A DNA stretch of 64,000 nt from Eledone cirrhosa (Eukaryota), in the NCBI GenBank assembly GCA_964016885.1, contig CAXHJY010000349.1, forward strand, positions 1 to 64,000, in the 5' to 3' direction. Numbering within the stretch: the stretch's first letter is position 1; each line of letters starts with the position of its first letter. This document shows positions 930 to 50,377 of this stretch, in pieces. A program made the translations under genes and the position numbers. Under the pieces are notes generated by a model. It saw only the letters and a list, made by a program, of their open reading frames with translations, had not been told where the DNA came from and searched no databases.

Positions 930-1035
930 GCTCCGAAGATCTGACTGGTTATAATTCTGTATTGGCGATCGAGTAACGCAAAATTAAGCGGATAGCGATC
1001 TCTAGACATACCAGTTCAGTGAAACAAATGTAAGC
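930..1035 (+). ncRNA. HHR-like motif with CCGAAGA (U4C) core and long stem II insert
   Basis: GCT-CCGAAGA-TCTGACTGG...CCAGTTCAGT-GAAAC(AAAT)GTA-AGC. The 3' half is repeated inverted at about 840-870. Confidence 0.55.
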
Positions 1036-1376
1036 TATGTGATTAAAAACTTTTTTGTATAGCAAACCATGTAAACCTTCATTCCTGAATTATATATATA
1101 TATATATATATATATATATATATATATAGACATTTATATATATATACATATATATATATATATACATATATATACATACATATATATATATATAAACATA
1201 CACACATATATATATATATATATATACATACACACACACATATATATATATATATATATATATATATATATATATATATATATATATATATATATATATA
1301 TATATATATTTATATGCATACATATATATATATATATATATATATGTGTTTATATATATATATATATATATATATA

Positions 1377-1907
1377 TAAAGTTAAATAAAAGTCAAATGA
1401 TTAAAATTTAGCTTCGCTTATTACTGCTATATATATTTCAGTGACAGCCATCTTTGGCTGTGACCTCTTCAGGCAGTTTGAATTAGTATGGTATAGACAA
1501 GTACATATGTTGTTTAGGTGTATGATATTGTCAATACTCTGATATGCCCAGTTCCTTGTTGGGTTGTTAATTCACTGGGGAACTGGAGTCATATGACTCC
1601 AGTTCCCCAGTGAATTAACAACCCAACAAGGAACTGGGCATATCAGAGTATTGACAATATCATACACCTAAACAACATATGTACTTGTCTATACCATACT
1701 AATTCAAACTGCCTGAAGAGGTCACAGCCAAAGATGGCTGTCACTGAAATATATATAGCAGTAATAAGCGAAGCTAAATTTTAATCATTTGACTTTTATT
1801 TAACTTTATTTTACACTACTCCGGAGTAACCAAACCAACCTGCGCACTTCGTCGAGTGCTCCAGCCTGCATACTGAGGTGTTGGTATACAACCAACATAA
1901 ACTCAAT
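1377..1907. repeat. Fold-back palindrome of the family A pLTR (arms about 215 bp, centre 1592/1593) in (TA)n
   Basis: Perfect inverted repeat around GGAGTCATATGACTCC. Confidence 0.95.
1708..1762 (+). ncRNA. Minimal type I hammerhead ribozyme, family A
   Basis: ACTGC-CTGAAGA-GGTCACAGCC(AAAGAT)GGCTGTCACT-GAA-AT(ATAT)ATA-GCAGT: 5-bp stem I, palindromic loop III, AUA site. Other copies: 1423-1477(-), 11573-11627(-, core mutated), 11858-11912(+), 12234-12288(-), 16364-16418(-), 17010-17064(+), 60864-60918(+). Confidence 0.85.
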
Positions 1908-2059
1908 ATATATATATATATATATAGATGCAGCCTCGGCAGATGAATACTGCTTGATTATGGCTGACAACTGATGCAACCAAGTCACCATAGTAAAAAC
2001 CAATATATGGAACATTATATTATGTAGCATTCTTTCATTATTTTAATTTATATTATAAA

Positions 2060-2250
2060 GGGCGGTGAATTGGCAGTATCGGTAGAGGGTCGGGCGCCAT
2101 GCTTTGCAGCACAGTTACGTCCCTTTACGGACTGAGTTTAAATCCCGCCGAGGTTAACTTTGCCTTTCATCCTTACGGGATCGATAAAATAAAGTACCAG
2201 TAATACACTGGGATAATTGCTGGCTTTGTGCCAAAAGTAGAAACAATTAT
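2060..2250 (+). mobile_element. tRNA-derived SINE (about 190 bp)
   Basis: A-box-like TGGCAGTATCGG, B-box-like GTTTAAATCC, body TTTGCCTTTCATCC..GATAAAATAAAGTACCAG; approximate TSD ATTT(T/A)AATTTATATT. Copies at 21955-22135(-), 48156-48340(-), 49100-49290(+), 35580-35772(-), 23270-23420(-), 31610-31760(-), 39808-39910(-). Confidence 0.88.
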
Positions 2251-2271
2251 TTAAATTTATATTCCTTTGAA

Positions 2272-47299: not shown

Positions 47300-48900
47300 A
47301 TTCTTCTTCGCCCACTTGTTCCTGAGAGGGTCGTGGAGGTTAGAGTACTCAAACACGCCTTCCAGCGGGTCCTGTCAGAGGCAACTGTCTCCAACTGATA
47401 GATCCCCAAGCGTGTTATCCAACCATCTTGTTGGGGAAGGGGTCCATCCCTGGGTCTCCTGCCCGTTGGTTGTGCCCGTAAAATCTCGCCAGCGATTCTT
47501 TCCTGAGACATTTTAACCACACGCCCAAAGTATCGGAGCTGTGATATCTCAATTCAGAGAAGTATCAGCTTTACCTGGAGTGACTCTTTGATCTCTGACC
47601 TACGCACTTTATCGAGTAACGTTACTCCAAAGACCCTTCGGAGAAATGCTATTTCGATCGTTTGCTTTCACGATCGTATTCTTTCGGTCATTACCCAAGA
47701 TTCATGACCCTAGATAAGTGTTTGCATGAATACCAGGAAAACAGCGAGTTTGGCTTTTACGCCTATCTCCGTTCTTCTGATTACTGAGTGCTGAAGCTGG
47801 CGTATCACTGCAACAACTCCTGCAACTCTTGCACTTAATTCAGCTCCCGCCTTCCATCACCTGAGGACACGGCCCCGAGGTACTTGAACTTCTCCACCTG
47901 CTTCAGTGGAACTCCATTCACATTTAGAGTGCACTGCATAGGCTTCCTTGAGAGGACAAGTGTCTCAGTTTTCACAGAACTGATTTTCATTCCAGCCATG
48001 CATCAAACCTATCAAGTACAAGCTAAAGATCGTATTATGTCGAGTTAAGTAACACCATGTCGTCTGCAAATTCCAGTTGACTGATTTTACACCCACCAGT
48101 CATGATACCACTTCCATCCCGGCTGCGCATGTCAATCCTGTTCATGTAAATAATGGTTTCTACTTTTGGCACAAGGCCAGCAATTATCCCAGTGTATTAC
48201 TGGTACTTTATTTTATCGACCCCGTAAGGATGAAAGGCAAAGTTAACCTCGGCGGGATTTGAACTCAGTCCGTAAAGGGACGCAACTGTGCTGCAAAGCC
48301 TGGCGTCAGATCCTCTACCGATACTGCCAATCCACCACCTTTCATGTAAATAATGAACAGGAGAGATGACAGTACGCACCCATTGCGGAGTCCGACTCCG
48401 GCATTGAATTGTTTCGATTTAGCACCAACTATACGAACACAAATACTCGTGCATTCATATAGAGATAACAGGGTAGCAAGAAGCTGACCATCAACCGCAT
48501 ACTCCTGCACAGCCTTCCATAGCAAGTCCCGCGGAACGCGGTCATATGCCTTTTCAACGTCGACCAAACAAGATACTGAGGTCACAAGAACAGTTAATGA
48601 GCTCAAATGTTGCAAGACAAAGATGGTATTCTCTGGCTGACTCGTGTGTGCTGGGTAGCCTCAATCTCTGGAAAGGCACCTAAGCAATAGCACTCGGGAG
48701 TAATAACCCCAATTTTCAAAAGGGGAGACAAGAGAGATTGTTCCAATTTCAGAGGGATCTCCTTGTTAAGACTCCCTGGAAAAATCTATGCTGAGTGTCC
48801 GGAAAAGAGAGGCAGGTAGATTGTCGAGTCCAAGCTAGATGATGGACAGTGTGGTTTTCGCCCAACACAACAGAGCCGACCAAATATTCACACTGTAGTA
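47300..48900 (-). mobile_element. RTE-like non-LTR retrotransposon remnant with inverted 5' part (about 48600-48900, +) and a SINE insertion
   Basis: Minus strand: VDVEKAYDRVPR, GLRNGCVLSSLLF, FADDMVL, VEKFKYLG, (GAA)n-like tail at 47300-47310. Plus strand: PIFKRGDKRDCSNFRGISLL..GK..QCGF. Confidence 0.85.
48156..48340 (-). mobile_element. SINE inserted in the LINE RT with a 15-bp TSD
   Basis: TTCATGTAAATAATG at 48141-48155 and 48341-48355. Confidence 0.9.
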
Positions 48901-49099
48901 GATATTCGAGAAAAGAAATATTACCAAGAAGTATATATATATATATATATATATATATATATATATATATATATATATATATATATATATATTACCAAAG
49001 ATTAATATGGTTCATTGATTACTCAATGAATATAGTTTTATAATAGATTAAAAGCACTCTACAGTGGGTTTTCTGGAGTTATTATTATTCAGAATAATA

Positions 49100-49290
49100 G
49101 GGCGGAGAATTGGCAGTATCGGTAGAGGGTTGGACGCCATGAGTTCTAGCATAGTTACGTCCCTTTACGATCTGAGTTCAAATCCCGCTGAGGTTAACTT
49201 TGCCTTTCATCCTTACGGGGTCGATAAAATAAAGTACCAGTAATGTACTGGGTAATTGCTGGCCTTGTGCCTAAAGTAGAAACAATTATT
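49100..49290 (+). mobile_element. SINE copy with TSD
   Basis: ATTATTCAGAATAATA on both sides; match to 2060-2250. Confidence 0.9.
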
Positions 49291-50332
49291 ATTCAGAATA
49301 ATAATAAATGAAGACATTCACATAATCAAAATATATGTTTTATTATATATATTTCGAAGGTACTGTGCTGTTTTTTCAATACGTATTGCAAAATACACTG
49401 TATGCTTAATATAATTCAGTCCTTATATATATATATATATATATATATATATATATATATATATATACACACACACACACACATATATATGCATATATAT
49501 ATATATATATATATATATATATATATATATATATTTGTGTGTGTGTCTATGTGTGTATATATATTTATATATATATATTTAAAGAAAAAAAGATGAAATC
49601 GAAAATGCAACTGGAGTCTTATTTAAAAAATATATATATATATTTATTTGGTTCCTTTACAGGTTTCGCATTTCTTCTGCTTTTCAAAAGTAGAGTTGAG
49701 ATGGAGGGTCTGTGGTTTTTCTCACATCTCTTTGGTCTCTGAATGTTACTTGTTTTATATGTAAAAAAGTGGCTCGAAATGACAGGTTTTTAGTGAAGTA
49801 ATTTGATTGGTTGGTCAATAATTATAATAAATTTCGTGCCAGTTCGCGTTACAAAGATCTTAAAAGAGTGGGGGGGGGGGCAGTTTTTTTTTCATATAAT
49901 TCTCTGCACACAAGCTTTTTCATATATTTCTCTGCACACAAGCTTCTTTATCATACATAAAAAATACTTTACCAATACAACCCCCATAATACACTTGTTT
50001 ACCCGCTTAAAGTGCTTGTATTGCATATAACACCTTGCCGCAAAATAATCTTATATAAATAAGATACACGTGCATGCCCCACGTGTAACTATTGCATACA
50101 CTAACTACTTCAAACTATCCTCTTGCATTATCTTCGTAAACTGACGATGTTGTATTTTAACTTTAATTTTGTTTTAATTTTCTTTTAATATGATTTTAAT
50201 TTTTGAATTTAAATTGCCATGCTAAAATATTATAATGGATGTCACCCCACTGTGCATCAATATATACATATGTTTCTGTATGTCCCTTGTGTTGGAAAAG
50301 AGGTCATGTATGTAAACAATCATTGGAAAATT

Positions 50333-50377
50333 GCTCCGAAGACCCCAAACCTCGGTTTGGACGAAACAATTGTAAGC
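50333..50377 (+). ncRNA. Compact HHR-like motif with CCGAAGA (U4C) core
   Basis: GCT-CCGAAGA-CC-CCAAAC(CTCG)GTTTGG-AC-GAAAC(AATT)GTA-AGC. Confidence 0.65.

What the first reader, a model, noticed from the sequence alone, without database searches (positions are those of the whole stretch)
930..50377. Recurrent CCGANGA (U4C) core in three different HHR-like motifs
Seen: 930-1035 (GCT-CCGAAGA...GAAAC AAAT GTA AGC), 2272-2391 (GTT-CCGATGA...GAAAC AATT GTA AAC) and 50333-50377 (GCT-CCGAAGA...GAAAC AATT GTA AGC). Stem I covaries (GCT/AGC versus GTT/AAC) and stem II is unrelated in sequence and length (20 to about 95 nt). Inference: the same substitution in three settings suggests a selected core variant rather than decay, since U4 is normally highly conserved.
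Basis: partly seen in the sequence, partly recalled or inferred. Interest (0 to 1): 0.72.

Follow-up and report, generated by a model that had tools for sequence, protein, structure and literature searches.

The report
C-for-U hammerhead ribozyme in Penelope retroelements
Three unrelated-looking jumping-gene families in this animal genome carry, in thousands of copies, a hammerhead self-cutting-RNA motif with C in place of a normally fixed U in its core, a change I found in print only as a rare plant-viroid variant, and it likely still cuts, slowly and in pairs, though cutting is untested.

Summary
Confirmed. The three CCGANGA motifs are real (3 seen, 0.003 expected by shuffling) and are type I minimal hammerheads in the pseudo-LTRs of three Penelope-like retrotransposon families (proteins 42-49% identical; Hydra-clade motifs, intact 808- and 832-aa ORFs in two). 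With position 4 left free, C is the family state: 99, 99 and 96 of the first 100 listed copies (976, 3,298 and 736 matches). A wider short-stem group has 8,439 C4 against 431 U4 copies. C4 carriers are not one clade (AU p 6e-6), and one C4 lineage is nested among U4 relatives, so U-to-C happened more than once, against a roughly 5-fold CpG bias towards U. Loop III changes by compensatory steps that make sense only in a dimer. Best reading: a slow, dimer-dependent, likely protein-assisted ribozyme with a pyrimidine at 4 and a loose 10.1-11.1 pair. Cleavage is untested; that C4 is favoured rather than tolerated is only suggested. U4C is known from one viroid variant; I found no family-wide case in the papers searched, but could not read Lunse 2017. 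New variant of a known kind.

The parts
930..1035 (+). Type I minimal hammerhead, family F1 (C4 at 934, A7, U10.1.U11.1, 81-nt stem II, loop III AAAT, predicted cut after 1032)
   Evidence: monomer MFE forms stems I and II (z -1.28; stem II alone z -2.88); 976 family matches, 99 of first 100 C4
901..1113 (+). Pseudo-LTR piece of PLE family F1, ending at a (TA)n run
   Evidence: 98% identical over 213 nt to the pLTR of the full-length element L154
608..901 (-). Inverted, 5'-truncated F1 pLTR copy; starts inside stem II, so it has the GAAAC half (842-856) but not the CCGAAGA half
   Evidence: 97% identical over 294 nt to L154
2272..2391 (+). Type I minimal hammerhead, family F2 (C4 at 2276, U7, G10.1-C11.1, 95-nt stem II, loop AATT, predicted cut after 2388)
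   Evidence: 736 family matches, 96 of first 100 C4; monomer MFE does not give the hammerhead fold (z +0.35)
2246..2726 (+). Pseudo-LTR piece of PLE family F2 (a further piece at 1928-2054, separated by an insert)
   Evidence: 93% identical over 483 nt to element L373
50333..50377 (+). Type I minimal hammerhead, family F3 subfamily b (C4 at 50337, A7, C10.1.C11.1, 20-nt stem II, loop AATT, predicted cut after 50374)
   Evidence: monomer MFE gives the three-stem fold; 3,298 family matches, 99 of first 100 C4
49924..50610 (+). 3' end / pseudo-LTR of PLE family F3b
   Evidence: 91% identical over 694 nt to element L093

Best explanation
The three motifs are minimal type I hammerheads in the pseudo-LTRs of three Hydra-like Penelope retrotransposon families whose copies carry C instead of U at core position 4, and they likely act as slow, dimer-dependent ribozymes that would cut the element's RNA after the GUA/GUC triplet. 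Shown: family-wide C4, position about 250-370 nt upstream of the RT-endonuclease frame and again 0.4-1.5 kb downstream of it, tandem pLTRs 4.2 kb (F3) and 3.5 kb (F1) apart, compensatory change in all three helices, repeated U/C switches. Inferred: two pLTR copies of a read-through transcript (or two transcripts) pair through the palindromic loop III, build a full helix III and cleave, releasing a unit-length RNA; U4C and an unpaired 10.1-11.1 position lower the rate without touching G8, G12, C3-G8, A9, A13, A14 or A15.1-U16.1; the element protein may chaperone the fold, as reported for an anole PLE. In the F3 group C4 seems to be kept against mutation pressure, which would mean that slower cutting (or a C4-specific contact) is preferred there.
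For: C4 in 99/100, 99/100, 96/100 listed copies with position 4 free; short-stem group C4 8,439, U4 431, G5A 202, controls 0-2, with U4 and G5A about equal (100 vs 84, counted by eye) over the first 1.14 Gb listed, i.e. scattered post-insertion CpG decay. Uninterrupted 832-aa ORF in 4 of 7 full-length F3 copies fetched and 808 aa in F1. Loop III: 134 of 142 distinct contexts self-complementary at both pairs, states AATT, AGTT, AGCT, GATT, GATC linked by G-U steps; the inner pair cannot form in a monomer; 11-row alignment 94.2% paired, helix III 100%, 0/500 shuffles as high. F3a homodimer MFE is the dimeric hammerhead, 11.7 kcal/mol below two monomers. C4 not one clade, AU p 5.8e-6, F1 sister to U4 family B9 at 100/100; 8 C4 rows (98/100) nested in 7 U4 rows that keep 27 of 35 other CpG cells. 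CpG transitions 0.034-0.046 vs A/T transitions 0.007-0.008 per site in pLTRs. No consensus A4 or G4 family among those listed. Literature: U4C viroid variant lower in vitro but infectious, U10.1-U11.1 the best-tolerated mismatch (PMC3088659, passages and section 8); PLE min-HHRs cut weakly as dimers (PMC4209133, parts 1-2 of 4); anole PLE HHR cuts only with protein (PMC11167929, passages).
Against: No cleavage or expression data: activity is inferred only. In a pairwise mutagenesis of a type III hammerhead all CUGA-region mutants except the C3-G8 swap had low activity (PMC9901934, passages). U4C is combined with A.G, C.C, A.A or U.U at 10.1-11.1 in most C4 subfamilies, which may add up to no useful activity. 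The youngest F1 subfamily has a non-palindromic loop AAAT. Site 2 does not fold as a hammerhead in the monomer MFE. Core conservation between families is partly circular because most families were found by core patterns. The persistence estimate (P 0.01-0.02) uses representatives picked for C4, 83 AT-rich flank columns and post-insertion rates; with non-CpG rates it is 0.15-0.20. HHR cleavage was not needed for insertion in vitro in the anole element (PMC11167929). U4 families outnumber C4 ones about six-fold in this genome (83,724 pattern matches), so C4 is no general advantage.
Confidence: 0.65

Rival explanations
1. Catalytically dead scaffold: the motif has lost useful cleavage and is kept as a dimerising or protein-binding RNA structure; C4 and the open 10.1-11.1 pair are signs of relaxed catalysis.
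For: Two rate-lowering changes together; low activity of CUGA mutants (PMC9901934, passages); cleavage dispensable in vitro for an anole PLE (PMC11167929, passages); AAAT loop in the youngest F1 subfamily.
Against: G5A, at the same CpG, occurs in 202 scattered copies but no dispersed subfamily amplified it (one local 4-copy tandem); position 17 is A, C or U in patterns that allowed only these, so this is not a test; position 4 flips only between U and C, the pair a working core is reported to tolerate (recalled from Ambros and Flores 1998, not read).
Confidence: 0.2
2. Working ribozyme, but position 4 is simply a neutral pyrimidine in this PLE group; C4 recurs by drift in a few successful master elements and confers nothing.
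For: U4 and C4 alternate among close relatives of F1 with the same architecture (6 changes among 35 rows); the mismatch at 10.1-11.1 predates C4 in that lineage; few masters, so few independent events.
Against: Mutation at this CpG runs about 5-fold towards U, yet 8 F3-group subfamilies over about 2 substitutions per flank site kept C and F1 moved U to C. This rival shares the mechanism of the best explanation and differs only on selection for C4; its confidence is part of, not beside, the 0.65.
Confidence: 0.3
3. C4 is kept for a DNA-level or non-ribozyme reason (a CpG or factor site in the pLTR promoter region, or splicing), overlapping the ribozyme.
For: The motif lies in the pLTR, which holds the promoter in PLEs (PMC6765202, passages); C4 creates a CpG.
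Against: Flanking letters differ between the families (GCT/GTT/ACT/TGT before, A7/U7 after); other CpGs in the region are not kept across subfamilies; nothing here tests promoter activity.
Confidence: 0.1
4. Chance matches or independent decay of canonical U4 copies.
For: T-to-C singletons do occur in U4 families (several).
Confidence: 0.01

Closest known systems
Minimal hammerheads (min-HHR) of metazoan Penelope-like elements, Cervera and De la Pena 2014 (PMC4209133; read parts 1-2 of 4, supplement file 2 part 1 of 3 and a term search of it; file 1 not searchable)
   Same: Type I, in both pLTRs, short stem I, palindromic loop III, dimer model, many families per genome, inverted partner copies nearby.
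   Different: Their consensus has CUGA and a highly conserved G10.1-C11.1; the only core variant in the parts read is U3-A8. CCGAUGA/CCGAAGA occur 0 times in the searchable supplement that holds their 56 representatives. Here C4 is the family state and 10.1-11.1 is mostly unpaired; stem II reaches 81-95 nt.
U4C hammerhead variant of peach latent mosaic viroid, Ambros and Flores 1998 (not held; seen only as cited in PMC3088659, passages; viroid name and the intolerance of A4/G4 are recalled)
   Same: Same substitution, CCGA for CUGA; reported to lower activity in vitro yet allow infectivity.
   Different: A rare variant of a type III RNA replicon hammerhead, not a fixed state; here fixed in about 10,000 genomic copies of several retrotransposon families, type I, dimer-type.
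Hydra clade of C-terminal EN+ PLEs, Craig et al. 2021 (PMC8557442; section 11, passages, term search of the supplement)
   Same: RWK/RWR, DKT, CxCX5C linker, CxxC and CxH around the endonuclease E and N, no two cysteines between the GIY and YIG equivalents, (TA)n targets.
   Different: Hydra elements were reported as generally under 3 kb with canonical HHRs; units here are 3.5-4.2 kb with a C4 core. None of the 28 CCGATGA/CCGAAGA places in the supplement text looked like a hammerhead (one strand, line breaks can hide matches).
Short PLE hammerhead variants that cleave as dimers, Lunse, Weinberg and Breaker 2017 (not held; known here from the citation and summary in PMC6765202)
   Same: PLE-associated, dimer cleavage.
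   Different: Unknown whether its alignments include C4 families; this is the main gap in the novelty claim.
Protein-assisted HHR of the anole Poseidon element PAc (PMC11167929, passages)
   Same: pLTR hammerhead close to the ORF start; weak on its own.
   Different: Different PLE clade; C4 not mentioned in the passages read.

Membership tests
Hammerhead ribozyme (type I, minimal) | Three helices around the core, strand order I-II-III-I | tested here: met
   (covariation in helices I, II, III)
Hammerhead ribozyme (type I, minimal) | Core C3, G5, A6, G8, A9, G12, A13, A14, A15.1-U16.1, H17 | tested here: met
   present at all three sites and in similarity-collected copies
Hammerhead ribozyme (canonical core) | U4 of the CUGA turn | tested here: not met
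   C4 in 96-99 of 100 listed copies per family; hence filed as a variant, not as a canonical member
Hammerhead ribozyme (canonical core) | G10.1-C11.1 pair | tested here: not met
   met in F2 only; A.G, C.C, U-A, C.A, U.U, A.A elsewhere; also absent in many U4 families of this genome
Hammerhead ribozyme | Site-specific self-cleavage after H17 | not testable with these tools
   no assay; no RNA holder listed
Rfam hammerhead models (clan CL00010) | Score at the gathering threshold | tested here: not met
   the three sites are not among the 150 listed of 177 matches; the best hammerhead hit in the window (17942-18013, U4) has 38.9 bits against 52
PLE min-HHR | Located in both pseudo-LTRs flanking an RT-endonuclease ORF | tested here: met
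   F3 L126-L131, F1 L152-L154, F2 L372-L373
PLE min-HHR | Short palindromic loop III allowing a dimer | tested here: met
   134 of 142 contexts; exception: AAAT in the site-1 subfamily
Hydra clade PLE | RWK and DKT motifs in RT region | tested here: met
   RWR/RWK at residue 51 in F3 and F1, RWK in F2; DKT read directly in the F3 and F1 translations (the regular expression missed it)
Hydra clade PLE | CxCX5C linker, CxxC and CxH flanking E and N, no CCHH, C-terminal GIY-YIG | tested here: met
   F3 and F1; F2 linker motif not matched in the one broken copy tested; atlas neighbours carry GIY-YIG/RVT_1 in part of their members
Hydra clade PLE | Falls in the Hydra clade of an RT phylogeny with reference PLEs | not testable with these tools
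   no reference PLE proteins could be brought in; Pfam and PDB sequence searches gave nothing useful
Neptune/Nematis PLE | CX2-5CxxC linker finger and CCHH in the endonuclease | tested here: not met
   my early notes called the elements Neptune-type, which this test overturned

The most novel reading that the evidence does not exclude
Hydra-clade Penelope elements have repeatedly evolved, and actively keep, a C-turn hammerhead (CCGA with an open 10.1-11.1 position): a deliberately slowed or protein-gated ribozyme that is favoured over the faster canonical core, present in over ten thousand copies here and invisible to every CUGANGA-based search, so a sizeable share of animal hammerheads has been missed.
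Probability: 0.3. Interest if true: 0.72.

Novelty: new variant of a known kind. Interest (0 to 1): 0.5.

Why it matters
U4 is treated as invariant in hammerhead descriptors, and the role of PLE hammerheads is an open question. Natural series of young elements that differ at U4/C4, at 10.1-11.1 and in loop III, with intact ORFs, give a ready test of whether these ribozymes must cut, how fast, and whether slower is better for the element. Practically, descriptors should allow Y4 and a mismatch at 10.1-11.1: about 10,000 motif copies (8,439 + 976 + 736 matches) in this genome fail a CUGANGA search. It is a single-letter variant with a viroid precedent, not a new ribozyme class.

Tried and rejected
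Sequencing runs: no RNA holder listed. Contigs of 4 runs laid on the F3a pLTR: no row at position 4 among the rows shown (16 not shown); contigs cannot show cleavage; not used. Pfam and PDB sequence search: no useful match. Idea that F3's true master has G10.1 and the window copy is a deletion: rejected, the commonest state is A.G, then C.C. Idea of a single origin of C4: rejected. Idea that C4 covaries strictly with N7 or with 10.1-11.1: rejected, both N7 states and mismatches occur with U4 and C4. Idea that a few C4 copies in the large U4 clade (L236) are a further C4 family: rejected, the family lists as U4. C4-specific alternative pairings (with CGG-containing stretches, or with G11.1 in F3a) are not shared between subfamilies. 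Neptune assignment: rejected. Tree included non-homologous flanks and was replaced. One search used a mis-registered structure string and was replaced. In one search row L051 was mislabelled U4 (it is an F1 body); relabelled, where two unlabelled rows were dropped. Twelve 10-kb stretches taken at arbitrary places gave too few protein-linked hammerheads for a survey.
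Full report
Observation. The three motifs are in the window as described. Cores start at 933, 2275 and 50336; stem I is 3 bp (GCT/AGC, GTT/AAC, GCT/AGC); stem II inserts are 81, 95 and 20 nt; loop III is AAAT, AATT, AATT; the triplet before the predicted cut is GUA in all three. A C4 descriptor finds 3 in the window and a mean of 0.003 in 300 shuffles. The window is AT-rich animal DNA full of (TA)n runs and Penelope-like fragments, with many ordinary U4 minimal hammerheads, for example at 1713, 4276, 17960, 50966 and 60869. The own genome G000 has 3.0 Gb.

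Each site belongs to a different high-copy family. Similarity searches gave 1,627, 1,422 and 1,885 first-look candidates, but best hits lean to the query, so I used patterns with position 4 free. F1 (site 1): 976 matches, 99 C and 1 T among the first 100 listed. F2 (site 2): 736 matches, 96 C, 2 T, 1 A, 1 G. F3 (site 3): 3,298 matches, 99 C, 1 T. Reversed-pattern controls were 0. These tallies are by eye from the listings, which cover the start of contig 1. A wider pattern for short-stem relatives of F3 gave 8,439 C4, 431 U4 and 202 G5A matches. U4 and G5A copies are spread over all subfamilies; over the first 1.14 Gb listed they number 100 and 84, as expected from decay of the two strands of one CpG after insertion; genome-wide U4 is twice G5A, part of which comes from unrelated U4 families that fit the pattern. 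Ordinary U4 motifs remain the majority: 83,724 matches against 301 control.

The carriers are Penelope-like elements. F3 copies spaced 4.2 kb apart on one strand flank a single frame of 832 codons, uninterrupted in 4 of the 7 full-length copies fetched (chosen for that spacing), 97-99% identical; the motif lies 254 nt before the frame and 1.4 kb after it. F1 has an 808-codon frame between motifs 3.5 kb apart; 43 of 61 F1 motif stretches in my loci were identical, though many of those loci were best hits. F2 bodies were found only broken. The window holds only pseudo-LTR pieces: F1 head-to-head at 608-901 (-) and 901-1113 (+), F2 at 1928-2054 and 2246-2726, F3b at 49924-50610. The proteins have RWK/RWR, DKT, a CxCX5C linker, CxxC and CxH around the endonuclease E and N, and no CX2-5CxxC or CCHH, the features given for the Hydra clade in PMC8557442 section 11. 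A tree with reference PLEs could not be built, so Hydra is by motif only.

Origins of C4. F1, F2 and F3 proteins are 42-49% identical, no closer than to U4 families (the alignment was projected on F3, which favours F3). Of 29 linked bodies, 18 with at least 330 residues went into the first tree; after relabelling one row and dropping two unlabelled ones, 16 rows. F1 is sister to a U4 family, B9, at 100/100; holding all C4 rows together is rejected (p-AU 5.8e-6; tested after the first tree was seen). F2 joins F3 only weakly. B9 had U4 in 3 of 3 listed copies. On the motif DNA with position 4 masked (35 rows) the 8 C4 rows of F1 form a clade (98/100) nested by starred branches among 7 U4 rows that keep 27 of 35 cells at other CpG sites, so their U is inherited, and F1's C4 is a separate U-to-C step. 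The sister group mixes C4 and U4; some of its U4 rows may be single-copy decay. Position 4 thus behaves as a pyrimidine in this group; no listed family had A or G as its state.

Is C4 favoured? In pLTR copies CpG transitions run at 0.034-0.046 per site and A/T transitions at 0.007-0.008 (in F2 bodies 0.026 and 0.009), so drift should push position 4 to U. Eight F3-group subfamily representatives span about 2.1 substitutions per flank site and all have C4; the rough chance of no C-to-U change is 0.01-0.02 at the CpG rate and 0.15-0.20 at the non-CpG rate. The representatives were picked for C4, the flanks are short and AT-rich, and active masters may mutate differently, so this is a hint, not proof.

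The fold is under selection. In 142 distinct short-stem contexts loop III is AATT 67, GATT 29, AGCT 23, AGTT 13, GATC 2, other 8; 134 pair with themselves at both positions (copies are related, so these are five states, not 134 events). The states are linked by G-U intermediates, and the inner pair has no loop in a monomer, so the pattern points to the intermolecular helix III of the dimer model. On an 11-row alignment 94.2% of cells pair, 100% in helix III, and 0 of 500 shuffles reach that (relatedness inflates this control). The F3a homodimer folds as the dimeric hammerhead, 11.7 kcal/mol below two monomers; site 1 forms stems I and II, site 3 the full fold, site 2 misfolds. Against this: 10.1-11.1 is A.G 39, C.C 36, U-A 34, C.A 15 and G-C once among the 142, U.U or A.A in F1, and the youngest F1 subfamily has loop AAAT.

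Mechanism, committed: a read-through transcript from the upstream pLTR carries two motifs; they (or motifs on two RNAs) pair through loop III and cut after GUH, giving a unit-length element RNA; the rate is low because the U4 contact to the A6-N7 phosphate (PMC3088659 section 8) is weakened and stem II starts with a mismatch; the element protein may help, as for the anole element (PMC11167929 passages). Location, family state and covariation are shown; transcription, dimer formation, cutting, rate and protein help are inferred. I give 0.65 to working ribozyme (about half of that with C4 merely tolerated), 0.2 to a dead scaffold, 0.1 to a DNA-level reason.

What is known. PLE minimal hammerheads and their weak dimer activity: PMC4209133 (parts 1-2 of 4 read; supplement file 2 part 1 and term search; no CCGAUGA/CCGAAGA there). 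U4C: one viroid variant, lower in vitro but infectious, as cited in PMC3088659 (passages); the primary paper is not held. CUGA-region mutants were low in a pairwise screen (PMC9901934 passages). Searches of the held library: hammerhead + U4C + ribozyme gave 1 paper, hammerhead + CCGANGA 0; (listings) showed no family-wide C4 report. All 28 CCGATGA/CCGAAGA places in the PMC8557442 supplement text were seen and none looked like a hammerhead. Also seen: first part of bioRxiv 10.64898/2026.07.22.740005, passages of PMC6765202, PMC6155905, PMC3376415 and PMC11300833, which added nothing on C4. Lunse et al. 2017 and the supplement of PMC7229834 could not be read and may bear on novelty. Earlier notes of this scan showed other core variants and a rearranged hammerhead in this genome, none naming U4C.

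Verdict. Real, family-wide, recurrent, and not decay; a new variant of a known kind with a viroid precedent and no activity data. Interest 0.5.

Noticed in passing
window 17942-18013 (+) and 63092-63164 (-): Canonical-type U4 hammerhead matching Rfam HH9 below threshold (38.9 and 29 bits), with 7-bp stem I; likely a retrozyme or another PLE family.
   Followed up: no
window 1400-1810, 11863/12283, 16413/17015, 50700-51050, 3368/4276: Head-to-head inverted pLTR pairs of U4 Hydra-like PLE families, each with a hammerhead on both strands.
   Followed up: partly
window 63719-63915 (-): 99% identical piece of the F3a pseudo-LTR that stops just before the hammerhead core.
   Followed up: no
window 52655-52881: Near-perfect GC-rich palindrome of about 227 nt, source of the spurious miRNA hits.
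   Followed up: no
L012 and five other loci: A family with the U3-A8 core variant (TTGAAAA), 7 hits in 6 loci; described before for Schistosoma PLEs.
   Followed up: no
G000:C2:343586645-343597201: Local tandem of four F3-group units 3.3 kb apart plus an inverted copy, all with a G5A core; a local amplification of a presumably dead motif.
   Followed up: no
L170:6166-7878: Tandem array with a 311-bp period and a U4 hammerhead in each unit, in two orientations: retrozyme-like.
   Followed up: no
G000, genome-wide: 83,724 matches to a U4 minimal-hammerhead pattern against 301 control: far more than the thousands per genome quoted in PMC4209133; most of the linked proteins tested have Hydra-clade motifs, so this clade is very abundant here.
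   Followed up: partly
L126:1286-1352: In subfamily F3a the monomer MFE pairs U2.1-C3-C4 with G11.1-G12-A13, an inactive fold that the dimer resolves; not shared by subfamilies with C, A or U at 11.1.
   Followed up: partly
L395, L398, L453 and L410-L446: Further C4 families with long stem II and stem I TGT/ACA or ATT/AAT, beyond the three flagged.
   Followed up: partly
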